Source: Patescibacteria group bacterium (GTDB taxonomy: Bacteria > Patescibacteriota > Saccharimonadia > CAILAD01 > JADZBC01). Taken from it: a DNA stretch of 64,000 nt. Positions 2 through 54,830 of this stretch are shown here, one piece after another (the stretch's first letter is position 1; each line of letters begins with the position of its first letter). The DNA is taken from assembly GCA_052034495.1 (NCBI GenBank), contig JBPOIL010000001.1, positions 84,293 to 148,292 on the forward strand, written 5' to 3'. A program made the position numbers and the translations under genes. The notes beneath the pieces are model-generated. The model searched no databases, was not told where the DNA came from, and worked only from the letters and a program-made list of their open reading frames with translations.

Positions 2-1324
2 CTTGTTTATATTGACCCGCCTTACAACACCAAAGGTGCTAACGACATATTTACCTACAATAATAGTTTCAACCACAGTGCGTGGCTAACCTTTATGAAG
101 AACCGTCTTGAAGTAGCCCACGAAATGCTTCGCAACGATGGTTTCATAGCGATAACTATTGACCACGTTGAGTTGTTCTATCTTGGTGCATTGGCAGATG
201 AGGTTTTTGGTGCGGAAAACCGTGTAGGCGTTGTAACTATTCTTATCAACCCAAAGGGGCGTCAGCACGAGAAGTTCTTTTCTGCTTCAACGGAGTATAT
301 GCTCGTCTATGCCAAAGACATTTCAAAGGCACAATTTGAGCAAGTTACTCTTGATGATGAAATTGCCCAAACCTTTGACCAGCAAGACGAACAGGGCAAG
401 TTTAGGTGGCAGTCATTTGCTCGTATTAGAACAAGCACAAGCCGTGAAGCAAAGCCCGCTTTTTATTACCCGATATACGTCAGTCCAGACTTACAGCATA
501 TTACTACTGACAACCTAGATGGTTATACCCCTGTTTACCCTGTATCAAATGGTAAGGATTATAGCTGGAAAACAAAGCCAGATACCTTTGCCGAACGTCT
601 TGCTGATGGTCAATACCGAGCTTATAAAAACGGAAATGGAAACATTGAAATACAGCACAAATATCGTGAACAGCAAGTTCTAAAAAACTTATGGACCGAC
701 AAAAAGTATTTCCCAGAGTTTCAGGGAACAAACCTATTGAAAAAGATAGTAGGCGAAGGTAAGTTCAGTTACCCTAAGTCGCTTTATGCTGTTATGGACA
801 CTATAAAACTTATGTCGTCAGGCGATGATATTGTATTGGACTTTTTCGCTGGTTCAAGTACCACTGGACACGCCGTTCTTGAATTGAACGCAATTGACGG
901 CGGAAACAGGCGGTTTATACTCGCAGAACAAATTGAGAAACATTATGACGTTGGTGTTGAACGAATTACAAAGGTAACGAAGGCACTGGATAGTAACGCT
1001 GAAACAATTTGCTTTGAACTAAAAAAATACAACCAAGAATACCTAGACGCCATTATGGAAGCAACGAGCATAAAGGAACTTGAAGACTTGTATGTTGATA
1101 TGCGTAACAATGCCTTCTTGAAGTTTTGGTTTGACCGAGCCGAGTTTGAGAAAGACGAAAACTTCCGAAGCAAAGATTTAGAAGGTCGCAAACAGGCACT
1201 TGCCGACATACTAGACGAAAACCAACTATACCTCAACTACGCCGATATGAACGATACACGTCATACAGTGTCGTCAGACGAGAAGGCACTAACGGACAAG
1301 TTCTATGGCGAAAACGAAAACTAA
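2..1324 (+). CDS. mod: Type III restriction-modification Mod subunit, N6-adenine DNA methyltransferase; 5' end cut by window edge
   Basis: Frame from nt 2 reads LVYIDPPYNT (the DPPY catalytic motif). Long ORF is 20 nt upstream-overlapped by a DEAH helicase-type res gene. Confidence 0.8.
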   Translation, partial: LVYIDPPYNTKGANDIFTYNNSFNHSAWLTFMKNRLEVAHEMLRNDGFIAITIDHVELFYLGALADEVFGAENRVGVVTILINPKGRQHEKFFSASTEYMLVYAKDISKAQFEQVTLDDEIAQTFDQQDEQGKFRWQSFARIRTSTSREAKPAFYYPIYVSPDLQHITTDNLDGYTPVYPVSNGKDYSWKTKPDTFAERLADGQYRAYKNGNGNIEIQHKYREQQVLKNLWTDKKYFPEFQGTNLLKKIVGEGKFSYPKSLYAVMDTIKLMSSGDDIVLDFFAGSSTTGHAVLELNAIDGGNRRFILAEQIEKHYDVGVERITKVTKALDSNAETICFELKKYNQEYLDAIMEATSIKELEDLYVDMRNNAFLKFWFDRAEFEKDENFRSKDLEGRKQALADILDENQLYLNYADMNDTRHTVSSDEKALTDKFYGENEN

Positions 1325-4133
1325 AATAAATGCGACACTTGGCGACTTCCTATTCAACCAAATAGAAAACGACCCTGCCTACATAGCGTGGCAAGCTGAT
1401 TTTACTATTCCTGAATACGTTACTGACAATTTGAGTAAGACCCTGCGTGAATACCAAATAAAAGCCTTGAAGCACTTTATTTGGCTGTATGAAACCGACA
1501 GAGCCAGAGCAAAGCACCTGCTGTTCAATATGGCGACAGGTACAGGTAAAACGCTCGTAATGGCGTCTGTGGTGCTATACCTATACGCACAAGGCTATCG
1601 CAACTTCCTGTTTCTAGTCCATCAGATACAAATCAAAGACCAAGCACTGAAAAACTTTACCGATTATAAGTTTGAGAAGTACCTATTCAATCCAAAGGGC
1701 GTAAGAATAAACGGGCGTAATGTAGCCGTAAAAGAAGCAAAGAGCATAACAGACACAGACCGCAACGCTATCAACTTTATGTTCTTCAGCACTTCGCTAC
1801 TTTATAATCGCCTGCTTGAAGATAAAGAAAACGGACTTACAGCCCAAGACTTTGCCGACAATGATGTAGTTGTAATTGCTGACGAAGCCCATAGGCTCAA
1901 CGTAGATACCCGAAGCAAAAAGAAGGCTGACATTGAAGAAGTCCGAAACTGGGAAACTGCCGTAATGTCGGCGGTCAAAGCTCGTGAAGGAAACCTGCTA
2001 CTTGAATATACGGCAACTGTTGATTTAGCCAACCAAGCAATTCACGAAAAGTACAAAGACAAGTTAGTTCATCGCTACGACTTTTTGGAGTTCAATCGTG
2101 ATGGTTATAGCAAGGACGTAAAGTTCTTATACAACAAAGAGGTTCATACCGAAGACCAAAAGCGTCTGCTTATCATCAACGCCGTTGCTTTGAGTGAATA
2201 TCGCAGGTTGCTTGCCGAGCGTGAAATGGGCGTTGATATGAAGCCGATTGTGCTAGTAAAGTCAGTCAAAATTGCCCAAAGTGAAGAAGACCGTGCGTTC
2301 TTTGACGGCGTTATTTCTAGCCTACGTCCAGACGACTTGAACCGATTGAAGGAACTTGCCAAGCAAAACGTAAACCACGAACACGAAATACTCAACGATA
2401 TGTTTGCGTGGCTCAAAGAGCCTAAAAACGGCTTTGTTTCGCAAGGCGATTGGGAAGGCTTGAATAAGTTTGTTAGTGAAATACGAGCCAGTTTTGCCCA
2501 CGATAATACGCTCATATACAACAGCCAGAAGAAGGAAAAAGCCGAACTGTTACCGTTGCTGGACAGCCCACGCAACACTATTCGTGCCATATTCAGCGTC
2601 AATGCTTTGAACGAAGGCTGGGACGTATTGAGCCTATACGACATTATTCACTTTGATATTAGCGAAAGTAAGAAAGTCAGTCTTCAAGATATTCAGTTGA
2701 TTGGTCGTGGTGCTAGGTATTTCCCTTATGAACTGCCACGCTCGTATAAGCCAGATGATGATAGCAATAAACTTTCTCTTGATTTTGCTCAACGCAATTT
2801 AGAGTTTGATAAAGACCGCCGAAAGTTTGATAACGCACCTTTTGAGCGTGGTCGTGTGTTGGAAACTTTTGTTTATCACTTCGTAAAGACTGGTATGTTC
2901 CTAGAAAACTTACAGCGTGATTTGCTTGGCGAAGGCATAATCAACGAAGGTGTTGAGCGAAAGACTATTACGCTAAAGACGAAGTTCCTTGAAAGCGAAA
3001 CCTACAAAAAAGGCTTTGTGCTAGTCAACCATACCGTCAAGCGAACCAAAACAACCGAAGACGAAATTGACACAACTTTCAACCGCACTATCAAGGCTGG
3101 TTTGTATAACCTACGGTCAAGGGGCTTATCTGACTATGAGCAAAACCAACAAATTGCGAGCCAGAAAACAAAGGTTATTCGTATTACCGATGAGTTTTTT
3201 GCCGAGCCGATAATACGCAAAGCGTTGGTATCTGCCGAAGCCAACTTTTTCCGCTACAACAACCTAGTTCAGCACATACCTGATTTGAAGACAGTTGACG
3301 AGCTGATAAACGAATACCTGCCAAAATACGAAATTACCTACACTTACGAAGACGGCAAAGATATTGGGTTATTGAACGCACAAGAAAAGTTACAACTGCT
3401 TGTTGGTGCTATTTTGCCAGAAGTTCGTAAGCGTATCGACATTTATATGCCACGAGAAGCAGGAAGTAACAAGTTTCGTCCAGTGTCATTATCGCAGGTG
3501 TTTGGTAAGGAAAAGAACATATACCTTATGTCGTTTCCAAGTATTGACCCTGCGACTGGCGAGAAGGTGTTCATTAGCACTGACGAGCGAGCCAAAGCCC
3601 AAAGCGACCACGACAACCCCGACTTACAGTTCAACGTAAAAGGTGCTGATTGGTATGCGTATAGTGAAAACTATGGCACAAGCGAAGAAAAGAAGTTTGT
3701 GAAATACCTTGCGAGCCAGATTGACGACTTACATATCAAATACAAAGGTGCGGAAATATACCTTGTTCGTAACGAATTGGACTATTGGCTATACAGCCTG
3801 AAAGATGGCCGTAGGTTCAGTCCAGACTATATGCTTATCATCAACGATGTTGCCAATGGCGAACTGTATTATCAGGTAATTATAGAGCCGAAAGGCGGTC
3901 ATTTGCTTGAACAGGACGCTTGGAAAGAAGAAGCCTTGATAAGCCTGAACGATGACAGTGAAGTTGTGTTTGATACCAACGAAAATGACAAGCAAGCATA
4001 CAAAGAATACTTGGCTGAAATGAGCAAGCACGGCTACAAAGAGATAAAGCCAATCGGCATAAAGTTCTATAACACTGACCCACGCCCTGAAAGCGAGTTT
4101 GCCCTAGATTTTGAGAGCAAGTTGCTGGCGTAA
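1305..4133 (+). CDS. res: Type III restriction enzyme Res subunit (SF2 helicase/endonuclease)
   Basis: Walker A ATGTGKTLV, DEAH box VVIADEAHRL, 942 aa. Overlaps the mod stop by 20 nt. Confidence 0.8.
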   Translation: MAKTKTKINATLGDFLFNQIENDPAYIAWQADFTIPEYVTDNLSKTLREYQIKALKHFIWLYETDRARAKHLLFNMATGTGKTLVMASVVLYLYAQGYRNFLFLVHQIQIKDQALKNFTDYKFEKYLFNPKGVRINGRNVAVKEAKSITDTDRNAINFMFFSTSLLYNRLLEDKENGLTAQDFADNDVVVIADEAHRLNVDTRSKKKADIEEVRNWETAVMSAVKAREGNLLLEYTATVDLANQAIHEKYKDKLVHRYDFLEFNRDGYSKDVKFLYNKEVHTEDQKRLLIINAVALSEYRRLLAEREMGVDMKPIVLVKSVKIAQSEEDRAFFDGVISSLRPDDLNRLKELAKQNVNHEHEILNDMFAWLKEPKNGFVSQGDWEGLNKFVSEIRASFAHDNTLIYNSQKKEKAELLPLLDSPRNTIRAIFSVNALNEGWDVLSLYDIIHFDISESKKVSLQDIQLIGRGARYFPYELPRSYKPDDDSNKLSLDFAQRNLEFDKDRRKFDNAPFERGRVLETFVYHFVKTGMFLENLQRDLLGEGIINEGVERKTITLKTKFLESETYKKGFVLVNHTVKRTKTTEDEIDTTFNRTIKAGLYNLRSRGLSDYEQNQQIASQKTKVIRITDEFFAEPIIRKALVSAEANFFRYNNLVQHIPDLKTVDELINEYLPKYEITYTYEDGKDIGLLNAQEKLQLLVGAILPEVRKRIDIYMPREAGSNKFRPVSLSQVFGKEKNIYLMSFPSIDPATGEKVFISTDERAKAQSDHDNPDLQFNVKGADWYAYSENYGTSEEKKFVKYLASQIDDLHIKYKGAEIYLVRNELDYWLYSLKDGRRFSPDYMLIINDVANGELYYQVIIEPKGGHLLEQDAWKEEALISLNDDSEVVFDTNENDKQAYKEYLAEMSKHGYKEIKPIGIKFYNTDPRPESEFALDFESKLLA

Positions 4134-11443: not shown

Positions 11444-13132
11444 ATGATAGAGGCTATGCAAGGAACTTTTGCCGAAATTGGGATGATCATGGCGGTTGCA
11501 GTGGCTGTGGCGGGCATCATGCACGCACTCAAGCAACCTCTTATTATTGCCTATATTATTACGGGCCTGATAGTCGGCCCGTACTTCTTGGACCTCATTC
11601 AGTCCAAAGAGACGTTCGAAGTATTCTCGTCTATCGGCGTAGCCTTGCTCCTCTTTATTATCGGGCTTGGCTTAAATCCAAGAGTTGTTAAAGATGTCGG
11701 TAAGATCGCACTTATTACTGGTGTCGGCCAGGTGGTGTTTACTTTTGTAATCGGTACTATTCTGGCGACAGTTCTTGGCTTTGCCCCAGTCACAGCTGCG
11801 TTTATTGGTGCTGCATTGACCTTCAGTAGCACCATCATCGTGCTAAAGCTTCTTTCGGACAAAAAGGAACTAAACCATTTGCACGGCAAGGTCTCGATTG
11901 GTTTTCTGCTCGTCCAAGATATTATTGCCGCACTCTTACTCGTTGTGCTCGTTGCGGTCTCCAAGGGCGGTAGCGTAGCTCAGTCCTTAACGAAAATGGG
12001 GGTTATAGCGATCGTGGCAGCGGTGGTATTCCTACTCTTCACTCACTTTGTGCTACCAGCCCTGAATAAGCTGTTAGCTTCCTCTCAAGAATTCCTATTC
12101 TTATTTGCCCTCGCCTGGGGCTTTGGCATAGCAGCTCTCATGAAGTGGGTCGGGCTCTCAGTCGAGATTGGGGCTTTGTTCGCCGGGGTAATGCTGGCCA
12201 GCTCGCCGTACAGCTTGGAGATTAGCTCTAAATTTAAGCCGCTTCGGGATTTCTTCCTCATTGTTTTCTTCATTCTCCTTGGCGCTAAACTGCAGCCATC
12301 CGACTTAGGTGCAATTCTGGTGCCCGGAATTCTGTTCTCACTCCTTGTACTCATTGGCAATCCAATTATCGTAATGAGCCTGATGGGCTCTATGCGATAT
12401 AGCAAAAAGACGAGTTTCAAATCGGGCTTGGCTGTAGCGCAGATTAGTGAGTTTTCTTTGATCCTTGTGGTGCTGGGGCAGAATCTAGGCAAAGTAGATA
12501 GTCAGGTAGTCTCCCTCGTTACCTTTGTGGCGATTGTGACGATTGCGGCCTCTTCCTACATGATTATGTACTCCGACTGGCTGCTCGATAAGCTGAGTAG
12601 GCCACTTTCTATATTTGAACGCTCTGTCATTAAGCAGCACAGAGTAAGTAATGAAAAGTGGGATATTGTAGTCTTTGGCTTCCGTAGCTCTGGCAAAAGG
12701 TTCTTGCAGTCGATTAAAAAGAGCGGCCGTAAAGTTCTGGTAGTCGACTACGATCCGGTTGCGATCGACCAGCTTACTGCTATGGATGTGCCATACAAGT
12801 ATGGGGATGCAGGCAACGTAGATCTACTCGATGAGATTGGGCTGAATACAGCAAAGCTTGTCGTGTCCACCATTACCGACCCTGCCACTAATATGCTGAT
12901 CGTAGAGAAGGCTAAGGAGCCTGGCGCACGTACATTAGTGGTAGTCACAAGCGACGAGATTGACTACGCGGCTGACCTGTATGAAGCAGGCGCACACTAT
13001 GTGATTATGCCTCACTACATTGGTGCGATGAAGACCGGCGAGATCATGGAGCGCGAGAAGTTTGACCTAAGTGACTTCTTAAAGGAAAAAGAGAAGCACC
13101 TGAAGTACATGGAAAGTGTTCGAAGCTTGTAG
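11444..13132 (+). CDS. CPA2-family cation:proton antiporter with C-terminal RCK/TrkA-N domain
   Basis: Multi-TM N-terminal region. Rossmann fold in the C-terminal domain: IVVFGFRSSGKRFLQSIKKSGRKVLVVDYD. Confidence 0.7.
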   Translation: MIEAMQGTFAEIGMIMAVAVAVAGIMHALKQPLIIAYIITGLIVGPYFLDLIQSKETFEVFSSIGVALLLFIIGLGLNPRVVKDVGKIALITGVGQVVFTFVIGTILATVLGFAPVTAAFIGAALTFSSTIIVLKLLSDKKELNHLHGKVSIGFLLVQDIIAALLLVVLVAVSKGGSVAQSLTKMGVIAIVAAVVFLLFTHFVLPALNKLLASSQEFLFLFALAWGFGIAALMKWVGLSVEIGALFAGVMLASSPYSLEISSKFKPLRDFFLIVFFILLGAKLQPSDLGAILVPGILFSLLVLIGNPIIVMSLMGSMRYSKKTSFKSGLAVAQISEFSLILVVLGQNLGKVDSQVVSLVTFVAIVTIAASSYMIMYSDWLLDKLSRPLSIFERSVIKQHRVSNEKWDIVVFGFRSSGKRFLQSIKKSGRKVLVVDYDPVAIDQLTAMDVPYKYGDAGNVDLLDEIGLNTAKLVVSTITDPATNMLIVEKAKEPGARTLVVVTSDEIDYAADLYEAGAHYVIMPHYIGAMKTGEIMEREKFDLSDFLKEKEKHLKYMESVRSL

Positions 13133-25733: not shown

Positions 25734-26300
25734 ATGAAGAAGATCTTTGCAGTATCGTATCTGCAATTCGTTCTAGGCATAGTGTTTACTGCTGCTACAT
25801 TCGCTTTGACGTTTTATGTAGACATTGTTGCCAAGTTAACTGGGCAAGAAAACATTAGCGAGAGTATTCTACGGCAAACATTAGGCGACCAAATTAGCGA
25901 CTTTAGCGGGATTGGTACCGTGAACACCGTGGTGATCGTGCTGTTCTGGAGCGCAGTGGGCCTGGCTGCTTATACGGCCGTTTGGTCTATGGCGAGTAGC
26001 TACATTAATGCTCGCAATGGCGTGAAGGTCGAGCAGGAGTATACCAACAGAGGGGATATTAAGGAGCGTATGCGCGTGCCGTTACTGCGTGCCGGTATTA
26101 TCATTGGTTTGATAATTCTGCTTATTGTCACATTGCAGAGCTTATGGCCAAGCTGGCTAGGCATGTTTGGGCAGTTCCTTACGACGGTTAGCACAGATGT
26201 CGTAGCTGCGCTTGGTTATTTTGTCGCAGCATTTGTAGGCGCTCTACTAAACTTATATGTTTTTAAAGTTGGAATAAGCGCAGCCCGAGCACTTAAGTAG
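25734..26300 (+). CDS. hypothetical multi-TM membrane protein
   Basis: Starts 3 nt after the previous stop. 188 aa, hydrophobic. Confidence 0.5.
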   Translation: MKKIFAVSYLQFVLGIVFTAATFALTFYVDIVAKLTGQENISESILRQTLGDQISDFSGIGTVNTVVIVLFWSAVGLAAYTAVWSMASSYINARNGVKVEQEYTNRGDIKERMRVPLLRAGIIIGLIILLIVTLQSLWPSWLGMFGQFLTTVSTDVVAALGYFVAAFVGALLNLYVFKVGISAARALK

Positions 26301-26369
26301 ATCGGCCTTTCCGGCGCATCTAAAAACCACTCCAAATAGGAGTGGTTTTTAGATAGCGTTAGCTGACTT

Positions 26370-29369: not shown

Positions 29370-29389
29370 TCTAGCCCCAAGACCATATG

Positions 29390-29470: not shown

Positions 29471-29546
29471 GGGCCCGTAGCTCAGTGGTTAGAGCAGTCG
29501 GCTCATAACCGATTGGTCGCTGGTTCAAATCCAGCCGGGCCCACCA
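29471..29546 (+). tRNA. tRNA with CAT anticodon; sequence closely resembles E. coli tRNA-Ile2 (lysidine; ileX) rather than tRNA-Met
   Basis: GGGCCCGTAGCTCAGTGGTTAGAGCAGTCGGCTCATAACCGATTGGTCGCTGGTTCAAATCCAGCCGGGCCCACCA. Cloverleaf with anticodon loop CTCATAA. Encoded CCA. Confidence 0.85.
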
Positions 29547-29590
29547 AGCATAAGCATTATAGATGAAGACTCCGAAAGGGGTCTTTTGTT
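29538..29590 (+). repeat. repeat A: tRNA 3' end (ggcccacca) plus 44 bp downstream including GNRA-loop terminator hairpin; duplicated at 30573-30625
   Basis: 53-bp direct repeat, about 90% identical to the copy at 30573..30625. Confidence 0.7.
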
Positions 29591-29927
29591 GTTATGTTTG
29601 AAATTGTGCAGGATTCAACTTATCATCAGGGTTGATGGTAGCGCCCTGCTGCCCGTACCGATGGAGGACACGATGGCTACCGACGCGAGTGGTTACGACC
29701 ACCTGAACGAAGACACCCCAATAGTGCTCGAGCTTGGAGGAGTGCGGGTGTCGTTGGTAGGGAAAGACCACATGGCCAAGTTGGTCTCAGCCGTTCTTCG
29801 TTCGAACTACGGGATGAACCGCTTCCTTGCAGAGCTCCTTTCCCAGCTCCCTTCCAGAGAGCACCTTTCGCCTGAGGAGCTGAAGCTTCTGGAGGACATA
29901 CGGGCCTACTTCTCAGCCCGGGGCTGA
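29586..29927 (+). CDS. hypothetical protein in GC-elevated cassette (likely start ATG 29661, MEDTMATD...)
   Basis: ORF of about 88-113 aa, roughly 58% GC, followed by a hairpin plus T-run at about 29975-30008. Confidence 0.4.
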   Translation: MLLCLKLCRIQLIIRVDGSALLPVPMEDTMATDASGYDHLNEDTPIVLELGGVRVSLVGKDHMAKLVSAVLRSNYGMNRFLAELLSQLPSREHLSPEELKLLEDIRAYFSARG

Positions 29928-30093
29928 TGCGCTACAGCGCAGATGATGGGGTGAGGCAACAGGGCCCACCCCAGAGCGACTTAGAATCATCTAGGTCGCT
30001 TTTTCGTTATTGACTCTTTATCGGGACAGGTATAGAATTTCACCAACACCTACCAACCGGTTCGTGTTAAGGCCAAATACAAGGGGGAAATCC

Positions 30094-30426
30094 GTGGCCA
30101 TCTTCCCGAGCATGACGCTCAAGTCGGTCAACCGTGTTCGTGTCGCACGTGGCGCCCCGCCGCTCAAGAAGCTGCGGAAGGGCGACCGTCGCAACCAGCA
30201 CATCTGTGCCATCGCCAACTCGCTCAGCGACGTGGCTCCCGGCATCAAGGTGCACAAGCGCCGCATCTCCGGGGTGGACCAGGAGTTCGCGGAGCTCATC
30301 GCCCGCGAGTTCGGCACCCACCTCGACCCGAGCAAGGAGACGCCCCAGGTGGTGATGCCGCTGCACATGCAGGGCTTCGTGTTCGCCTACGACCGAGGCG
30401 CCTACGACGAGCTCGCTCGCACCTGA
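30094..30426 (+). CDS. hypothetical protein, very GC-rich (~65% GC) cassette gene; start uncertain (GTG 30094 after AAGGGGG, ATG 30112, or TTG 30010)
   Basis: Strong GC3 bias picks this frame over the five overlapping ORFs. Translation ...MTLKSVNRVRVARGAPPLKKLRKGDRRNQHICAIANSLSDVAPGIKVHKRRISGVDQEFAELIAREFGTHLD... Confidence 0.45.
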   Translation: MAIFPSMTLKSVNRVRVARGAPPLKKLRKGDRRNQHICAIANSLSDVAPGIKVHKRRISGVDQEFAELIAREFGTHLDPSKETPQVVMPLHMQGFVFAYDRGAYDELART

Positions 30427-30430
30427 CCCA

Positions 30431-30524
30431 TCCATGTCCTGCGCGCATAGCAATACTGCGCAGCGTCTGCCAGACGATACCTGGCATCACCCAAGTTCAT
30501 GAATGTGATTCGTGAGTTTAGGTG
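30431..30524 (+). repeat. repeat C: structured ~95-bp element (stems ctgcgc/gcgcag, cgtctg/cagacg, tgccag/ctggca; ttcatgaa palindrome) directly after the cassette stop
   Basis: Homologous to repeat D at 31166-31288, with compensatory stem changes. Confidence 0.6.
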
Positions 30525-30572
30525 AGATTACCTCCGCTAGAGCTTGCAGATGGTTACAAGTGAGTCCAGTAA

Positions 30573-30625
30573 GGCCCACCAAGCATAAGAATTATAGATA
30601 AAGAATCCGCAAGGGGTCTTTTGTT
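30573..30625 (+). repeat. repeat B: second copy of the tRNA(CAT) 3' end plus downstream 44 bp (att-like remnant)
   Basis: ggcccaccaagcataagaattatagataaagaatccgcaaggggtcttttgtt compared with 29538-29590. Confidence 0.7.
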
Positions 30626-30648
30626 ATGCTTGATATCATTATCACGAA

Positions 30649-31155
30649 GTGTCATTATATGCCCACGAAGCAAACAATAGCTTCACGACCATAGGGGGTT
30701 CGTTGAAAACGCAGTCCTTGCAGTTCCACTTCGTTGGAAACCACTTGCTCGATGGCGGAGAGTACATCCTCTTCCTCATCCCAATCGTTGCCCTGCTGAC
30801 CGGAGTCGGTCTCCTCGTCGACGACAGAAAGAAGCATGCCGACAAGGTGCTCGTGTGCGCCCTCGTCTTCTTCTTCGGTCTCTTCATAGCGATGCACAAC
30901 AGCGGCGCTCACTACGACGTTCAGTACGTCAAGGGAGAGCTGGAGTCACAGGGGCTAAACGTTGTGAGGAGCAACGTCACAGGGGATGACAAGAACGACA
31001 ACACGGTCACCTTCGGCAACGGCGGGTGTGAGCTCGGTGACTTCAAGTTCTACTACGAGAAGGGCACCGTGCGTGCCTACGTCCGCCGAGGTGAGTACGA
31101 TGTGCTCATCACCCCGCAGCTCCTCGAGCGCATGTGCGCGTCTACCGGCGGCTGA
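30649..31155 (+). CDS. hypothetical membrane protein, very GC-rich cassette gene (2 TM segments plus soluble C-terminal domain); N-terminus/start uncertain
   Basis: GC3 about 85% in this frame from about 30740 on. TM segments ILFLIPIVALLTGVGLLV and VLVCALVFFFGLFIAM. The leader resembles that of the 30094 gene. Confidence 0.45.
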   Translation: MSLYAHEANNSFTTIGGSLKTQSLQFHFVGNHLLDGGEYILFLIPIVALLTGVGLLVDDRKKHADKVLVCALVFFFGLFIAMHNSGAHYDVQYVKGELESQGLNVVRSNVTGDDKNDNTVTFGNGGCELGDFKFYYEKGTVRAYVRRGEYDVLITPQLLERMCASTGG

Positions 31156-31165
31156 CCGCGTCGCC

Positions 31166-31288
31166 AACCATGTCCTGCACGCATCGCAATACTGTGCAGC
31201 GTTCGCCAGAACGATACTCTGGCGGGTGGGAGCTTCCGAGCTCCTGCCGTCACCCAAGTTCATGAATAGGATTCGTGAGTTTAGGTGA
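31166..31288 (+). repeat. repeat D: second copy of the structured element (stems ctgcac/gtgcag, cgttc/gaacg, gccag/ctggc; extra ggagct-tccg-agctcc hairpin)
   Basis: Shares ccatgtcctgc(g/a)cgcat(a/c)gcaatactg(c/t)gcagcg... and tcacccaagttcatgaat..gattcgtgagtttaggtga with repeat C. Confidence 0.6.
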
Positions 31289-31324
31289 AGCCGTCGTATC
31301 TTCTTGTGTGGTAGCATATAGTCT

Positions 31325-31765
31325 ATGAATCAACATCTGTCAGACGAAGAGTATCAAGCGGTCTATTCAAAAGTTCCTAGGCTGAATGTCGAGTTGGTTA
31401 TTATGGAGCGAGGAAAAGTTCTCCTCTCGAAGAGAGTAATAGAGCCTTGGCAGGGGCATTGGCACTTGCCAGGTGGCCGTGTCCTGATGAATGAAACCCT
31501 GGAAGAGGCAGTGGCCAGGATAGGAAGACTAGAACTTGGGCTTGAGGTAAAAGCAGTAGACGTCCTCGGCTCAATCACATATCCGAGCATAAAAGGCCAG
31601 CCCAAGGATTTTGAGTGGCCTATAGGAGTTGTTTATAGCGCGGATGTTTTGAAAGGAGAGATAAAAGGCTGGGAGTTAGCCCCTAGAGTCGAGTGGTTTA
31701 GCGAGCTGCCCAGACCAATAATTGAAGAGCAAAAGACTTTCCTCCTCGACAGAGCCTTGTTTTAG
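31325..31765 (+). CDS. NUDIX hydrolase
   Basis: GHWHLPGGRVLMNETLEEAVARIGRLELGL Nudix box. Confidence 0.7.
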   Translation: MNQHLSDEEYQAVYSKVPRLNVELVIMERGKVLLSKRVIEPWQGHWHLPGGRVLMNETLEEAVARIGRLELGLEVKAVDVLGSITYPSIKGQPKDFEWPIGVVYSADVLKGEIKGWELAPRVEWFSELPRPIIEEQKTFLLDRALF

Positions 31766-31834
31766 TATCCTAGGCGAGACTACTGCCGACCTTCTATAGC
31801 CCATTGCATATAAAATCATAAAAGCTAGCATAGT

Positions 31835-32248
31835 GTGATGCGCAGGAGTATTACACAGAAAAGAGAATATGGCTGTGGTGTGGCCTGCTTTGCGTTTGCT
31901 ACCAATATGGGCTACCACGAAGCCGAGAACCATCTTGGCAAGGACATCGTAGAGAGGCATGAGTTTAGAGGCGTCATCATGAACAGGCTGCTAAATGAAT
32001 ACGGCCTGGAATATCGAAAGAGGTACACAGGGGCGGGCTGGAGGCCAAAGAAATACCCTAATGGCACAATCGCCTACATTTACGCGAGCGCTACGCACCC
32101 TCACGGGCATTACTTGATTCGACACAATGGTGCATGGATGGATCCATGGATCAATATGAGGGATGATCGTAGAATTCGGTTTGCTAGATCGGGCTACAGA
32201 CCAAAACTACCAGGTAAGCCTATGTTTTTGCTGCTACCAATTACTTGA
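31835..32248 (+). CDS. papain-like cysteine peptidase, C39-like domain protein
   Basis: GCGVACFAFATNMGY (Cys nucleophile motif as in the C39 CGxAxL motif). Downstream HYLIRHNG His. Confidence 0.5.
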   Translation: MMRRSITQKREYGCGVACFAFATNMGYHEAENHLGKDIVERHEFRGVIMNRLLNEYGLEYRKRYTGAGWRPKKYPNGTIAYIYASATHPHGHYLIRHNGAWMDPWINMRDDRRIRFARSGYRPKLPGKPMFLLLPIT

Positions 32249-32283
32249 ACTAGTGTGCGCTTAGTGGTACGATAAAACACTTT

Positions 32284-33063
32284 ATGAAGATTATTACGTT
32301 AAACATTTGGGGCGGGCGAGTGCTTGAGCCACTCTTGGAATTCTTTAAGACTAAGGCCCAAGAAGCTGACGTTATTTGCTTGCAAGAAGTCTTTGCTTCG
32401 GGCTTGGAGCTAGAGGACGTTGATGTTTGTACAAACATGCTGGATAGACTGCTGCCGATAATGCAGGACTATAGATTCGTTTACAATTCCAATGTGGTGG
32501 ACAGGCTGACTTCGCAGATCGAGGGCAGCGATTTACGTTATGGCAACGCTATTTTTGTGCGTAAATCTCTCAGGCTACGCGGTAGTCAGAATCAGTTTAT
32601 CGTAAAATACCCCGGTGACGTTTATGATCTGGAAGCAGGTGATGATCATCCGCGAGCCCTGCAAATCGTGCAGCTTTCCGATGAGTACGGGAATAACTTT
32701 TCTGTAGCGAACTACCATGGCTATTGGAGTAACGGTCCCAAGACTGACGACGAAGTGCGCCTTGAGCAGTCAGTGCGTATTCGTGAAGTGCTTGATGGGC
32801 TGAATGAGCCATTTGTACTTTGTGGCGACTTTAACTTGCTACCAACCACCAAAAGCCTAGATATCCTACGGGATGGCCTAAGCGACATGGTTCAAAAGTA
32901 CAAGTTATCAACTACTCGGTCGCCCTTATATAAGCGCATAGACTATGCGCCGTTTGCCGACTACATGTTTACTACCCCAGAGGTGCGCGACAAGAGCTTC
33001 CGAGCCCTGGACGACGTAGTTTCTGACCACTTGGCGTTAGAGCTCGACTTCGACCTGGTATAA
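32284..33063 (+). CDS. endonuclease/exonuclease/phosphatase (EEP) family protein
   Basis: N-terminal MKIITLNIWGG. C-terminal SDHLALELDFD. Confidence 0.7.
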   Translation: MKIITLNIWGGRVLEPLLEFFKTKAQEADVICLQEVFASGLELEDVDVCTNMLDRLLPIMQDYRFVYNSNVVDRLTSQIEGSDLRYGNAIFVRKSLRLRGSQNQFIVKYPGDVYDLEAGDDHPRALQIVQLSDEYGNNFSVANYHGYWSNGPKTDDEVRLEQSVRIREVLDGLNEPFVLCGDFNLLPTTKSLDILRDGLSDMVQKYKLSTTRSPLYKRIDYAPFADYMFTTPEVRDKSFRALDDVVSDHLALELDFDLV

Positions 33064-36159: not shown

Positions 36160-36236
<77 letters not shown>

Positions 36237-36243
36237 GAATTTA

Positions 36244-36275
36244 TTTAGTCCCTTCGGGGACCTTTCTGTTTCAGC
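36244..36275 (+). terminator. hairpin (gtcccc-ttcg-ggggac) plus T-rich tract after tRNA-fMet
   Basis: Stem-loop followed by CTTTCTGTTT. Confidence 0.45.
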
Positions 36276-36301
36276 AAGATAACACTATAATATGACGGTA
36301 T

Positions 36302-36378
36302 GGCTGAGTAGCTCAGTTGGTTAGAGCGCGGGACTCATAAGCCCGAGGTCGGTGGTTCAATCCCACCCTCAGCCACCA
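36302..36378 (+). tRNA. elongator tRNA-Met (CAT)
   Basis: GGCTGAGTAGCTCAGTTGGTTAGAGCGCGGGACTCATAAGCCCGAGGTCGGTGGTTCAATCCCACCCTCAGCCACCA, similar to E. coli metT. Confidence 0.85.
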
Positions 36379-36392
36379 ATGCATTGATAGGA

Positions 36393-36425
36393 CAAATATG
36401 GACGACATAGGTCGTCCTTTTGTTT
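36393..36425 (+). terminator. rho-independent terminator (ggacgac-atag-gtcgtcc-TTTTGTTTT)
   Basis: Perfect 7-bp stem plus T-run. Confidence 0.65.
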
Positions 36426-36444
36426 TCCTGGTACAATAAAGCTA

Positions 36445-37773
36445 ATGATTGAGCGACTAAACCAACACTTGAGTAAGAGTGGATTGCTTCCGCAGGGCAG
36501 CAGCATTGTTGTGGCTGTTTCGGGCGGTGTAGATTCGGTAGCTCTGCTCGATATGCTGATGGAATTAAAGGAAGAGTATGGCTGGGATATTGCAATTGCA
36601 CACCTGGATCATAAGGTTCGACCAAGTTCGGCCGATGACGCGCAAATGGTTGCCGATATGGCTCGCAAGTACGATGCGAAATACTACCTAGGGCAATTGG
36701 GTGGTGACGAAACACGCGAAGCAGGCCTGCGCCGAGCACGCTATGACTTTCTGGAGGCTATTCGTAGTGGCCACCAGGCCAACTGGATAGTTACGGCCCA
36801 CCATCGTGACGACCGGATAGAAACATCCATCTTTAACACGATTCGTGGTGCCGACCGCTACGGCATGACGGCAATGCGCCCCGTGCGGGGTAGAATCGTT
36901 CGACCACTTTTGCCCTTCCGTAAAGGAGACTTGATAGCCTACGCTCACGCAAAGGGACTGCCCTTTGTGGAGGACGAGACGAACTCCGACCAGTCGTATA
37001 GTCGCAACTTTGTTCGCCATTCGTTGCTACCACTTGCGTCGCAGTACGATACGAACTTCCATGATGATTACCTTAAAAGGCTTGATAAGATGGAAGAGCT
37101 GAATGTGTCGATCGAGCACGGACTGGAGCAGATTATTACCTATCTGGATCGCGGCAGTAAAGGTGATAAGTTGAAGCTCGACCGAGTTGGGTTTGCAAAA
37201 CTTTCGCCAGTTATTCAATTAAACTTGCTTGTCCACATTGCTCGGCAGCTGTGCCCCGGCATTGGTCTATCCGAAGTGAACTTAGGCGAGGCACAGCGCT
37301 ACTTACTCAACGCCAAGACTGGTACGCACAAGACTATCGGCGGCATGCTCGAGCTTCGAAGAGACTACGATGTACTCGTGCTGCTGCCAGTTCAAACAGC
37401 TGTAGATTCAGACCAGGCCAGTAGGGTTGTACCTCTTAGCCTGGGTGGTGCCATAGAGTTTGGGCGCTACTTGCTTGCGCTAAATAGCCCAAGTGGGTCT
37501 GAGGTGTTTGATTCTGCATGGCTGAAACCAGGTAGTTACTACGTGCGGAAGTGGTGCAAAGGTGATAGAATATACCCTGCTGGGATTCAGGGGTCTAAGA
37601 AAATGAGCGATCTTTTCATAGACAAGAAGGTCCCGCAATCAGACAGGCTGGATTGGCCAATTATTGTGAATACCCAAAATGAGATTGTGTGGGTGCCGGG
37701 CCTCGGTATCGGTAGGAAGTTTGTGGGCACACCCGAATCTAATGATTATTATGTAACTTGTGAGGTGATATGA
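36445..37773 (+). CDS. tilS: tRNA(Ile)-lysidine synthetase
   Basis: PP-loop VAVSGGVDSVAL. 442 aa. Conserved tilS-ftsH linkage. Confidence 0.85.
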   Translation: MIERLNQHLSKSGLLPQGSSIVVAVSGGVDSVALLDMLMELKEEYGWDIAIAHLDHKVRPSSADDAQMVADMARKYDAKYYLGQLGGDETREAGLRRARYDFLEAIRSGHQANWIVTAHHRDDRIETSIFNTIRGADRYGMTAMRPVRGRIVRPLLPFRKGDLIAYAHAKGLPFVEDETNSDQSYSRNFVRHSLLPLASQYDTNFHDDYLKRLDKMEELNVSIEHGLEQIITYLDRGSKGDKLKLDRVGFAKLSPVIQLNLLVHIARQLCPGIGLSEVNLGEAQRYLLNAKTGTHKTIGGMLELRRDYDVLVLLPVQTAVDSDQASRVVPLSLGGAIEFGRYLLALNSPSGSEVFDSAWLKPGSYYVRKWCKGDRIYPAGIQGSKKMSDLFIDKKVPQSDRLDWPIIVNTQNEIVWVPGLGIGRKFVGTPESNDYYVTCEVI

Positions 37774-53375: not shown

Positions 53376-54830
53376 ATGCATAGGTCGACACAAATACTGA
53401 TTGCTGCTATCGGCTTGATGTGCGGCATTGTGTTCGCGCGATACTACGGTTCGGCTTGGAGTTGGCAAATGCTTGGCTGGGCAGTGCTGGCGCTTGCGGC
53501 AGCTGTCGTTATCCGCAGGAGTAGCCTCGCATATGTCCTAATCTGCTTGCTTGCGTTTGCCATAGGCATGTTGCGTCAAGACATATTTATCGCGCAGCAG
53601 CCCGCCAGGACGATTGATAGTTTGCAGTATAGCAAACACATAGTAGTCGGCACCGTAGCTAGCGAGCCCTTTCGCGACGACAAGACAAACTATGTATCTT
53701 ACTTTAAGGATTTGGTAGTCGATGGAGAGCCTGTCGCAGGCGATCTTCGAGTTAAGTCGCTCGTGGCAAGTGCCAAAGAAGGCTATCGGGTCGAAGTGCA
53801 GGGCAAAGTATTGCCCAGCTTGGGCAAAGCTAGCAGTTCTGTCAGTTATGCAAAAGTATCAATACTTTCAACCCGGCAAAGCATCCTTGTCCAAGCAAAG
53901 AGCGAGTTTAGTAAGGGAGTTAGAAGAGCATTACCCGAGCCTGTCGGGAGCTTTATGCTCGGTATCCTAATAGGTGCCCGCTCGACATTACCGAAGGAGC
54001 TACAAGACACGATGGCACTCATTGGTCTGTCCCATCTCATCGCCGTATCGGGTTATAACTTAACGATAATAACCCTGGCTATTCAGGGCTTGGCCGGCAA
54101 GAAGTGGCAGTGGGCAAGCCTGGTTGGTACATTGTGGCTAATCGTTGGTTTCGTGGTCTTAACTGGTGCATCAGCGTCGATCGTACGGGCGGGGATTATG
54201 TCCACACTCTTCTTGCTCGCATCGTATTACGGCCGTAAGCTTGAGGTTCTAACGTGCTTGGCCTTGGGCATCATCATTACCCTCATGTGGAGCCCAGCAT
54301 ATATTTCCGACCTAAGCTGGCAGCTATCATTCTTGGCGCTTGGAGGTATCGTCCTGCTCACCCCAGTTGTACGGGCATTGATACCGCAACGGTTCGGGGC
54401 TGCAGGGGAGATAGCTGCAGTTTCTGTCGCCGCACAAATCGCCACTATGCCGCTCGTTGCCTATGTATTTGGTAGCATATCTGTCGTGGCGCCATTAGCA
54501 AATGTGATCTTCCTGCCCTTCGTGCCAATACTGATGCTACTCGGGCTCTTAGCCGGCCTAATTGGCATGCTCGCCCCAGGCGTTGCGTTCGCGGCTGCAT
54601 GGCCAATTGGGGGTGTTGTGAATGCGATGCTGGATTGCATGAGGTATCTGGCCGGCTTGCCGGGCGCCGCAATCAATGGCACTACGCCCTCGGAGTTTGC
54701 CGTACTGGCGTTCTACGCTCTACTCGTCACACTGGGTCTGCTAGCGCATCGTCGTGGCTTGGGCTCGTCGGTGGCTAATGCTATAATTACAGGTAGAAAA
54801 GAAGGAACTACAGATGAGCGGACACAGTAA
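53376..54830 (+). CDS. comEC: ComEC/Rec2-family DNA-uptake channel (competence domain only; no metallo-beta-lactamase domain)
   Basis: Multi-TM. LIGLSHLIAVSGYNLTII competence-domain motif. 484 aa. Confidence 0.7.
   Translation: MHRSTQILIAAIGLMCGIVFARYYGSAWSWQMLGWAVLALAAAVVIRRSSLAYVLICLLAFAIGMLRQDIFIAQQPARTIDSLQYSKHIVVGTVASEPFRDDKTNYVSYFKDLVVDGEPVAGDLRVKSLVASAKEGYRVEVQGKVLPSLGKASSSVSYAKVSILSTRQSILVQAKSEFSKGVRRALPEPVGSFMLGILIGARSTLPKELQDTMALIGLSHLIAVSGYNLTIITLAIQGLAGKKWQWASLVGTLWLIVGFVVLTGASASIVRAGIMSTLFLLASYYGRKLEVLTCLALGIIITLMWSPAYISDLSWQLSFLALGGIVLLTPVVRALIPQRFGAAGEIAAVSVAAQIATMPLVAYVFGSISVVAPLANVIFLPFVPILMLLGLLAGLIGMLAPGVAFAAAWPIGGVVNAMLDCMRYLAGLPGAAINGTTPSEFAVLAFYALLVTLGLLAHRRGLGSSVANAIITGRKEGTTDERTQ

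What the first reader, a model, noticed from the sequence alone, without database searches (positions are those of the whole stretch)
30431..31288. Repeats C and D preserve stem-loops through compensatory substitutions
In the shared core, stem ctgcGc/gcGcag of repeat C becomes ctgcAc/gTgcag in D. Likewise cgtctg/cagacg becomes cgttc/gaacg, and tgccag/ctggca becomes gccag/ctggc. Paired co-variation implies selection on secondary structure (ssDNA recombination site such as attC-like, or a structured RNA/terminator) rather than neutral drift. Both copies start 2-12 nt after a cassette stop codon and end with tcacccaagttcatgaat..gattcgtgagtttaggtga. D carries an extra perfect hairpin, ggagct-tccg-agctcc.
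Basis: seen in the sequence. Interest (0 to 1): 0.65.

Follow-up and report, generated by a model that had tools for sequence, protein, structure and literature searches.

The report
Structured 3' module of mobile gene cassettes
Repeats C and D are two copies of an undescribed ~100-base, three-hairpin element whose stems are kept by paired mutations; it follows foreign genes in a fast-changing gene-cassette island beside a tRNA gene and most likely acts in the cassette mRNA, not as an integron-type recombination site.

Summary
C (30428-30527) and D (31164-31288) share three hairpins, and D has one extra. I found six more distinct copies in related metagenomic genomes. Across the eight copies, 97% of pair cells are standard pairs and seven pairs changed on both sides; register-shifted controls give 32-40%.

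Context: the element lies in a hypervariable cassette array between tRNA-Met and an Exo_endo_phos gene. Cassette junctions are copies of the tRNA 3' end plus its terminator. In sister strains the same site is empty, holds a cassette, or holds 5-7 kb elements encoding a large serine recombinase. Those elements lack C/D.

The element always follows the stop codon of a high-GC orphan ORF, on the sense strand. Its wobble pairs form only on that strand. The long hairpin is stable as RNA but weak as DNA.

- **Best reading (about 0.5):** a 3'-UTR RNA module for stabilising or processing the cassette mRNA.
- **Tested and not met:** integron attC, intrinsic terminator, serine-recombinase att site.
- **No match:** Rfam, phage and plasmid collections.
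- **Function:** untested.

The parts
29471..29546 (+). tRNA-Met (CAT). Its 3' end (GGGCCCACCA) is the integration point that anchors the cassette array.
   Evidence: ARAGORN and Rfam. Empty and occupied states of the same site in sister strains.
29547..29590 (+). Sequence just downstream of the tRNA (agcataagc... plus an intrinsic terminator).
   Evidence: Repeat family D3, terminator scan, junction list.
29661..29927 (+). Cassette ORF1: orphan, 58% GC, with its own promoter-like site at 29598-29626.
   Evidence: No Pfam or PHROG match.
29948..30006 (+). Alternative cassette 3'/junction module 'J2': hairpin ggggtg/cacccc containing GGCCCACCC, followed by a terminator hairpin.
   Evidence: Recurs in L002, L011, L013, L021 and L026.
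30010..30038 (+). Sigma-70-like promoter of the ORF2 cassette (TTGACT-17-TAGAAT).
   Evidence: Conserved upstream of ORF2 in L002 and L010.
30094..30426 (+). Cassette ORF2: 110 aa, orphan, 66% GC.
   Evidence: Its homologues in L002 and L010 are each followed by a C-type element.
30428..30527 (+). Repeat C: three-hairpin element. H1 is 30439-30463, H2 is 30468-30486, H3 is 30487-30525.
   Evidence: (107.9 bits).
30526..30581 (+). 47-nt spacer followed by a pseudo-tRNA 3' end: T-arm-like atggtt...tccag, then the core GGCCCACCA at 30573-30581. This is the recombinase 'P-half' scar that marks the end of the cassette.
   Evidence: The same half-site sits at the attR of the serine-recombinase elements.
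30582..30625 (+). Copy of the tRNA-downstream sequence plus a slightly degraded terminator.
30630..30658 (+). Promoter-like site of the ORF3 cassette (TTGATA-17-CATTAT with an extended TG).
30649..31155 (+). Cassette ORF3: called as 168 aa, with an alternative TTG start at 30703. Predicted membrane protein, orphan, 58% GC.
31164..31288 (+). Repeat D: the same element with an inserted fourth hairpin. H1 is 31175-31199, H2 is 31204-31224, the extra hairpin is 31225-31248, H3 is 31250-31288.
   Evidence: 90.4 bits. Variant D' in strain L022.
31289..31781 (+). NUDIX gene segment, present here but absent in strain L022. It is flanked by TAGGTGA and TAGGCGA.

Best explanation
C and D belong to a small, lineage-specific family of ~85-125-nt elements made of three consecutive hairpins.
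- H1 and H2 are short.
- H3 is an ~18-bp stem. Its lower half is invariant in sequence and carries one C.A mismatch and three G.U pairs.

**Where the element sits.** It starts within about 0-17 nt of the stop codon of foreign, high-GC orphan genes. Those genes are carried as small cassettes, each with its own promoter, in a hypervariable island. The island is built by site-specific integration, by a large serine recombinase in sister strains, at the 3' end of tRNA-Met.

**Proposed role.** The element most likely works in the sense transcript as a 3'-UTR module. It would be a stable multi-hairpin block, and possibly a protein or RNase recognition site in the invariant lower stem of H3. It would protect or define the 3' end of the cassette mRNA, upstream of the junction terminator.

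**Shown:** the family exists, its stems are conserved through compensatory change, its strand and position are as described, the island has this architecture, and the recombinase is present in sister strains.

**Inferred:** that the active form is RNA, and that the effect is on mRNA stability or processing.
For: **Structure conservation**
- 96-97% of pair cells are standard pairs, and 6-7 pairs changed on both sides, against 32-40% paired in slid controls.
- RNAalifold independently finds H2 and H3.
- Eight distinct copies in five lineages score 40-108 bits with the covariance model.

**Strand**
- All three invariant wobble pairs in H3, the two in D's extra hairpin, and the one-sided changes U-A to U.G (variant F, L011) and G-C to G.U (F, H1) pair only on the + strand. 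This is the sense strand of the upstream ORF.
- H3 as + strand RNA is a continuous helix of -10.6 to -15.6 kcal/mol.
- As - strand RNA it is -7 to -13 kcal/mol with internal loops.
- As DNA on either strand it is only -2 to -6 kcal/mol, and variant F does not form the hairpin at all.

**Position**
- The element lies between a predicted promoter plus ORF and a downstream terminator.
- It directly follows the stop codon of four unrelated ORF families with 58-68% GC, against 49% for the genome.
- It stays attached to the ORF even where the downstream att scar has been lost: D in the window, D' in L022, C'' in L010.

**Not needed for integration**
- Two serine-recombinase elements use the same site and lack the element.
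- Cassette boundaries map to the GGCCCACCA core.

**Other cassettes.** Other cassettes in the array end in a different two-hairpin module (J2). This fits a general pattern of structured 3' ends on these cassettes.
Against: - There are no expression data. Transcription through the element is inferred only from consensus promoter and terminator matches.
- There are only eight copies and few independent substitution events. The structure was derived from the same sequences used to test it.
- Whole-element folding energies do not favour the + strand for C: -34.2 kcal/mol against -36.1.
- The lower stem of H3 is invariant in sequence, so it says nothing about pairing. It could equally be a DNA or protein recognition site.
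- The distance from H3 to the att core is exactly 47 nt in all five copies that keep the core. This could mean a link to recombination.
- Copy number in the rest of the genome is unknown, because only 64 kb could be searched.
Confidence: 0.5

Rival explanations
1. The element is a folded single-stranded DNA site, a functional analogue of integron attC, an HUH-nuclease or oriT hairpin, or a single-strand origin. It would be recognised on the + strand during replication, transformation or transfer, and would be used to mobilise or capture cassettes.
For: - It sits at the 3' end of cassettes, right after the ORF, as attC sites do.
- It keeps a fixed 47-nt distance to the att half-site in five copies.
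- Its structure is strand-specific.
- The + strand is the lagging-strand template, judged from the steadily rising GC skew.
- The genome encodes ComEC, so DNA can enter as single strands.
- The NUDIX indel has one edge at the 3' base of H3.
Against: - As DNA, H3 is only -2 to -6 kcal/mol with no strand preference, and variant F does not fold.
- The 5' and 3' ends do not pair, and there is no GTTRRRY or RYYYAAC motif.
- No tyrosine, integron or HUH enzyme appears among the window ORFs scanned or in the gene tables of related loci.
- Insertion boundaries in four alternative occupancy states map to CCCACCA|A, not to the element.
- Recombinase-bearing elements lack it.
- The NUDIX indel is explained more simply as a deletion between 7-nt microhomologies.
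Confidence: 0.13
2. The element is a dispersed selfish or neutral intergenic repeat of the REP/BIME, BOX or RUP kind. It would occur at many sites in the genome and happen to be present twice in this island.
For: - Its build is modular, with an extra hairpin inserted in D and an H3-only derivative at L013:11474-11528.
- It lies after stop codons.
- Different copies are mosaics of each other. For example, C'' in L010 combines C-type H1 and H2 with an E-type top of H3.
- Assemblies break inside it.
Against: - A filter-off covariance-model search of the 64-kb window finds only the two island copies. The next hit, 16.8 bits at 26275-26357, is an ordinary bidirectional terminator.
- All copies in related loci also lie within the island.
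- There are no terminal inverted repeats or target duplications.
- Pattern scans of three public collections found nothing, although those collections seem not to hold these genomes.
Confidence: 0.12
3. The element is a double-stranded DNA accessory or arm-type protein-binding region next to the cassette's attP half-site. It would work like the arm sites, or the excisionase and bending-protein sites, of integrative elements.
For: - It lies 47 nt upstream of the P-half and core in five copies. In a circular cassette it would therefore flank attP.
- The lower stem of H3 is invariant in sequence.
Against: - Paired changes keep complementarity rather than sequence.
- The arm mismatches are mainly wobble-type on one strand.
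- Large serine recombinases use short att sites without arms (established knowledge of serine integrases).
- The two recombinase elements that use this attB lack the element.
- Three copies persist with no att half-site nearby.
Confidence: 0.07
4. There is no function. The element is a relic of one ancestral cassette end, spread by duplication and gene conversion, and the hairpins are incidental.
For: - Copies are few and related.
- The shuffle control does not account for relatedness among the sequences (tool notes).
Against: - Seven pairs changed on both sides, and a two-sided insertion adds one pair at the top of H2 in D and in E/F.
- 97% of cells are paired, against 32-40% in slid registers.
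- Loops and flanks diverge freely while stems hold.
- The element is kept after four unrelated ORFs in five lineages.
Confidence: 0.08

Closest known systems
Integron attC sites
   Same: - A structured, sequence-variable element placed immediately 3' of the ORF in each mobile gene cassette.
- Strand-specific folding.
- Stems kept by compensatory change.
- Arrays of small cassettes encoding orphan proteins.
   Different: - attC is one long bulged hairpin, formed when R''-L'' pairs with L'-R'. It has extrahelical bases and a GTTRRRY crossover box, and IntI recombines it as ssDNA.
- Here there are three or four separate hairpins whose ends do not pair, and no such boxes.
- No integron integrase is nearby.
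- The cassettes carry their own promoters and terminators.
- Cassette boundaries lie at a tRNA-3'-end core, where a serine recombinase acts in sister strains.
Structured intergenic repeats that act in mRNA 3' ends (REP/BIME in enterobacteria, BOX and RUP in pneumococcus, RNase III hairpins between T7 genes)
   Same: - Stem-loop modules just downstream of stop codons.
- Modular gain and loss of hairpins.
- A plausible role as a barrier to 3' exonucleases or as a processing site.
   Different: - Those repeats are dispersed in tens to hundreds of copies across a genome.
- This family has so far been seen only inside one island, after foreign high-GC ORFs.
- It shares no sequence or Rfam match with them.
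tRNA-anchored genomic islands built by repeated site-specific integration (e.g. tycheposon islands of Prochlorococcus, bioRxiv 10.1101/2020.12.28.424599; tandem integrase-less elements in other bacteria)
   Same: This matches the context of C and D.
- Partial tRNA copies separate successive inserts.
- Newer inserts sit next to the tRNA.
- Some occupants carry a recombinase and others are remnants without one.
- Strains of one species differ in content.
   Different: - The recombinase here is a large serine recombinase acting at the extreme 3' end of tRNA-Met.
- The inserts are very small, 0.35-2.3 kb.
- Each junction repeats the tRNA's own terminator.
- Tycheposons are not reported to have a conserved three-hairpin 3' module.

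Membership tests
Integron attC | A single imperfect hairpin in which the 5' end (R''-L'') pairs with the 3' end (L'-R'), with extrahelical bases | tested here: not met
   MFE and centroid folds of C and D on both strands give three or four independent local hairpins, with no pairing between the ends. The consensus fold shows the same.
Integron attC | Conserved R' box GTTRRRY at the 3' end and RYYYAAC at the 5' end | tested here: not met
   The 3' end reads GAGTTTAGGTGA. GTTTAGG has T at the first R position. The 5' end reads CCATGTCC or CCAACCATG.
Integron attC | An adjacent integron integrase (IntI, a tyrosine recombinase) with attI and Pc, followed by promoterless cassettes | tested here: not met
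   No recombinase was found among the 30 window ORFs scanned with Pfam or in the gene tables of syntenic loci. Not every small ORF of the window was scanned. The cassettes have their own promoter-like sites. The only recombinases at this locus are large serine recombinases in L012 and L030.
Integron attC | Cassette boundaries (the recombination point) lie inside the element | tested here: not met
   Comparison of empty and occupied sites places the junctions at CCCACCA|A, 47 nt or more downstream of H3.
Rho-independent (intrinsic) terminator | A GC-rich hairpin followed directly by a T/U run | tested here: not met
   The scan finds terminators at 29389, 29565 and 29973 but none in C or D. H3 is followed by GATTACC in C and AGCCGTC in D.
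Large serine recombinase attP/attB site | A short (~40-50 bp) site centred on the crossover and present in every element that uses the recombinase | tested here: not met
   The crossover lies at the tRNA 3' end core. C-type elements lie 47 nt outside the half-site and are absent from both recombinase-bearing elements.
Any described RNA family (Rfam 15) | A covariance-model match at or near the gathering score | tested here: not met
   The gathering-threshold search of the window returns only the four tRNAs. Permissive E-value searches over the island and over the L013 array return only chance-level hits outside C and D.
Dispersed REP/BOX-like intergenic repeat | Many copies scattered through intergenic regions of the genome | tested here: inconclusive
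   There are no copies outside the island in the 64-kb window with filters off, or in the non-island parts of about 0.3 Mb of related loci. The rest of these genomes could not be searched.
Cis-acting 3'-UTR RNA structure | It is transcribed as part of the upstream gene's mRNA and affects that mRNA's stability, processing or translation | not testable with these tools
   Only indirect support is available: its position between promoter-like and terminator-like sites, sense-strand wobble pairs, and RNA versus DNA stability.

The most novel reading that the evidence does not exclude
The tRNA-Met island is an integron-like cassette platform in a small-genome, probably Saccharibacteria-like, wastewater bacterium. 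Tiny promoter-bearing cassettes would be captured at a tRNA 3' end by a large serine recombinase supplied in trans. The C/D three-hairpin module would be the cassette-side, structure-specific recognition element, read as a folded strand during uptake, replication or excision. That would make it a functional analogue of attC that evolved independently of tyrosine-recombinase integrons.
Probability: 0.1. Interest if true: 0.8.

Novelty: new member of a known kind. Interest (0 to 1): 0.42.

Why it matters
- **A new structured-element family.** If the RNA reading is right, this is a new cis-acting RNA motif tied to horizontally acquired genes. It would suggest that mobile cassettes carry their own expression parts (promoter, structured 3' end, terminator) so that foreign high-GC genes can work in a reduced genome.
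- **A natural example of strain-level gene flux.** One tRNA-Met site is found empty, holding recombinase-free mini-cassettes, or holding 5-7 kb serine-recombinase elements within a single species.
- **A testable system.** The recombinase and its att site could be tested directly, and serine integrases are useful genome-engineering tools.
The finding does not reveal a new recombination chemistry. The attC-like idea failed each feature that could be tested.

Tried and rejected
1. **Pattern scans of public collections.** Exact and gapped patterns for H3 found no hits in genome contigs, metagenome contigs or viral contigs. The att half-site pattern also found no hits in viral contigs. A related JGI contig that does contain the pattern was not found either, so these collections appear not to hold this lineage. 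The zeros therefore say little.
2. **Locus search with the flanking protein.** The search for related loci with the bactofilin-like protein found no relative in genome contigs.
3. **Phage and plasmid collections.** Searches with the element's DNA and with ORF2 gave only chance-level hits.
4. **Rfam.** No match.
5. **attC, terminator and serine-recombinase att site.** Each failed a defining feature (see the membership table).
It overlaps H2 and is not conserved.
7. **tRNA-like cloverleaf.** I asked whether the three hairpins plus the downstream pseudo-tRNA end form one. There is no acceptor-stem partner, and the H2 loops break anticodon-loop rules (read from the sequences).
8. **An att core at the element's 5' edge.** The edge resembles GCCCACCA (E has it exactly; C reads CCCATCCA; D reads GCCAACCA). 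No half-site precedes it, so I treat the resemblance as unproven and probably chance.
9. **The NUDIX indel as site-specific recombination at H3.** The flanking repeat is only 7 nt and imperfect, so a microhomology deletion is simpler.
10. **Shine-Dalgarno mimic.** AGGTGA at the 3' end of H3 resembles a ribosome-binding site, but no start codon lies at a suitable distance.
11. **Identifying the organism.** Protein clusters carry no names and accession searches found nothing. The only lead is that sample 3300056999 comes from a wastewater nutrient-removal pilot plant (PMC10949500). The Saccharibacteria-like label is my inference from gene content.

Full report
**1. The observation**

C (30428-30527) and D (31164-31288) align over their whole length, apart from a 25-nt insertion in D. 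Their conserved blocks occur exactly twice in the 64-kb window, against 0-0.05 expected by chance. Both start shortly after a stop codon (30424-30426 and 31153-31155). Both end with the same 39-nt hairpin.

As RNA the + strand folds into consecutive local hairpins, with z-scores of -2.9 and -3.4 against dinucleotide shuffles.

- H1: ctgcGc/gCgcag in C becomes ctgcAc/gTgcag in D.
- H2: tgccag/ctggca becomes cgccaga/tctggcg. That is a U-A to C-G change plus one extra A-U pair gained by a two-sided insertion.
- H3: 18 bp, with one C.A mismatch and three G.U pairs. The stems are identical in C and D and the loops differ.
- D adds a 10-bp hairpin (31225-31248) around the perfect ggagct-tccg-agctcc.

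It would leave a 1-nt loop in C. It is absent from three other family members, whereas H2 is the minimum-energy fold in all six.

**2. More copies**

ORF2, the gene before C, has homologues only in close relatives. Their contigs, and contigs found through flanking proteins, gave syntenic loci from five lineages. I found six further distinct copies.

| Copy | Location |
|---|---|
| C' | L002:10338-10434 |
| C'' | L010:12044-12139 |
| E | L013:12993-13077 |
| F | L011:12568-12655 |
| H3-only derivative (G) | L013:11474-11528 |
| D' | L022:2039-2162 |

These copies add more compensatory events.
- In H2, tgcCAG/CTGgca becomes tgcTGGA/TCCAgca.
- In H3, a G-C pair is replaced by A-U, and the top pair changes among A-U, C-G and U-A.

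The pair counts are as follows.
- On a MAFFT alignment of six variants, with D's extra hairpin removed, 96.4% of pair cells are standard pairs. Six pairs changed on both sides. Registers slid by 1-3 columns give 32-40%.
- On the model-fitted alignment of all eight copies, 97.2% are paired and seven pairs changed on both sides.
- RNAalifold independently predicts H2 and H3.

The number of independent events is small, and the structure was derived from these same sequences. The evidence is good but not overwhelming.

A covariance model searched with filters off finds only C and D in the window. The next hit (26275-26357, 16.8 bits) is an ordinary bidirectional terminator.

**3. Context**

The window is a bacterial chromosome encoding TilS, FtsH, LepA, ComEC, RNase Y, sortase and RuvB. 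One related sample is from a wastewater nutrient-removal plant (PMC10949500). I suspect a Saccharibacteria-like organism but could not test this.

The stretch between tRNA-Met (29471-29546) and the Exo_endo_phos gene (32284-33063) is hypervariable in all close relatives. It ranges from 2 to 9 kb and holds small, mostly orphan ORFs.

Strains that share an identical 65-aa flanking protein carry different sets.

| Strain / locus | Array content |
|---|---|
| Window | ORF1, ORF2+C, ORF3+D, NUDIX |
| L021 | GIY-YIG, 151 aa, 375 aa, 83 aa |
| L022 | 298 aa, ORF3+D' |
| L026 | 131 aa, 375 aa |

Cassette junctions are pseudo-copies of the tRNA 3' end (..GGTTCnA..GGCCCACCA), followed by agcataag and a copy of the tRNA's terminator.

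In one sister species the first position after the tRNA is found in four states.
- Empty (L033).
- A 2.3-kb recombinase-free cassette (L013).
- A 5.1-kb element with a 523-aa large serine recombinase carrying Resolvase, Recombinase and Zn_ribbon_recom domains (L012).
- A 6.8-kb element with another serine recombinase, a Y-family polymerase and SRAP (L030).

All of these join at CCCACCA|A. The attR half-site of L030 (ttatggttcgagatgagtctagttaggcccacca) is the same sequence found at the cassette junctions after E and F. The array therefore looks like an accretion of serine-recombinase integration products and their remnants. This resembles tRNA-anchored islands described elsewhere (bioRxiv 10.1101/2020.12.28.424599).

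**4. Where the element sits in that architecture**

- It follows the stop codon of four unrelated ORF families by about 0-17 nt, always on the sense strand. The exception is the decayed H3-only copy.
- Those ORFs have 58-68% GC, against 49% for the genome.
- Low-GC cassettes and both recombinase elements lack it.
- In five copies it lies exactly 47 nt upstream of the att core.
- In three copies (D, D', C'') the att scar is gone but the link to the ORF remains.
- Other cassettes end in a different two-hairpin module, J2 (window 29948-30006), which includes a canonical terminator.

**5. RNA or DNA**

- The wobble pairs form only on the + strand. They are the three invariant pairs in H3, the two in D's extra hairpin, and the one-sided changes U-A to U.G and G-C to G.U in F.
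- Two positions go the other way: the invariant C.A mismatch and an A.C in D'.
- H3 folded as + strand RNA is a continuous helix of -10.6 to -15.6 kcal/mol.
- As - strand RNA it is 1.2-3.6 kcal/mol weaker and is broken by internal loops.
- As DNA it is -2 to -6 kcal/mol on either strand, and variant F does not fold at all.
- Promoter-like sites precede ORF2 and ORF3, and a terminator follows the C junction.

I therefore favour an RNA role in the 3' UTR. A multi-hairpin block would stabilise or define the 3' end of the cassette mRNA, and the invariant lower stem of H3 would be a likely protein or RNase recognition site. This is inference.

- No expression data were available.
- Whole-element energies do not separate the strands for C.
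- The fixed 47-nt spacing leaves room for a link to recombination.

**6. Comparison with known systems**

- **Integron attC:** functionally tempting, but the end-to-end hairpin, the conserved boxes, the nearby integrase and the position of the crossover were each tested and not met.
- **Intrinsic terminator:** not met, because there is no T-run.
- **Serine-recombinase att site:** not met, because the element lies outside the site and is absent from elements that use it.
- **Rfam 15:** no match. The phage and plasmid collections also gave nothing.
- **REP/BOX-like dispersed repeat:** cannot be excluded without the rest of the genome.

**7. Verdict**

This is a real, selected and previously undescribed structured element. 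It is most probably a new cis-acting RNA module of mobile gene cassettes. Novelty is modest: a new family of a familiar kind, in an interesting mobile-DNA setting.

Noticed in passing
window 29471-32283; L013:9229-15400; L012:11525-20620: The whole stretch between tRNA-Met and the Exo_endo_phos gene is a hypervariable array of 0.35-2.3 kb cassettes. The cassettes are separated by pseudo-copies of the tRNA 3' end plus its terminator. Strains with identical flanking proteins carry different cassette sets.
   Followed up: yes
L012:11560-13128 (-) and L030:9329-10864 (-): Two different integrative elements (5.1 and 6.8 kb) encode large serine recombinases and sit exactly at the tRNA-Met 3' end in sister strains. 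L033 shows the empty site. The L012 recombinase ORF reads across attL, so its last ~14 codons are the antisense of the tRNA 3' half.
   Followed up: partly
window 29948-30006; also L002:9855-9915, L021:12890-12950, L013:14590-14655, L011:12080-12140, L026:860-925: A second recurrent cassette-end module (J2). It has a hairpin that varies with compensation (ggggtg/cacccc against ggggc/gcccc) and contains GGCCCACCC in some copies, followed by a conserved terminator hairpin agcgacttaga..tctaggtcgct.
   Followed up: partly
L013:10085-10190 and L013:12430-12545: A repeated 5' leader precedes two different high-GC cassette ORFs: aaactttctcc..ctccccgaacggggagaaaggctggta.tacaggATGgacctgt.ccagttgtt. It includes a hairpin and the first ten codons, MDL(S/F)QL(L/F)SGG. 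No Rfam match.
   Followed up: no
L021:11597-11963: A 355-nt mini-cassette holding only a GIY-YIG nuclease-domain gene is inserted exactly after the tRNA 3' end. It is flanked by a 12-nt direct repeat, CCGGGCCCACCA (11597-11608 and 11952-11963).
   Followed up: no
window 31282-31288 and 31775-31781; L022:2153-2165: The NUDIX gene segment is present in the window but absent in strain L022. It is bounded by TAGGTGA and TAGGCGA. L022 keeps the right-hand version, which puts an A.C mismatch at the base of its H3. A microhomology deletion is the simplest account.
   Followed up: partly
L006 (ends 35 nt into C), L008 (starts 10 nt into C), L018-L020 (end just after the 65-aa gene): Short-read assemblies of the same strain break at the C/D and A/B repeats and at the tRNA. 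This fits either repeat collapse or population heterogeneity at the island.
   Followed up: no
window 36160-37773: Two more tRNA genes with a CAT anticodon lie in tandem directly upstream of tilS, the tRNA-Ile lysidine synthetase gene. One of them may be the TilS substrate, tRNA-Ile2.
   Followed up: no
window 95-4133 and 53376-54830: The window also holds a type III restriction-modification pair (N6_N4 methylase plus ResIII helicase) and a ComEC competence channel gene. Both bear on how foreign DNA enters this genome.
   Followed up: no
L030:17796-18198: An IS1595-family transposase gene follows the E-type element in one strain. This is a further source of rearrangement in the array.
   Followed up: no
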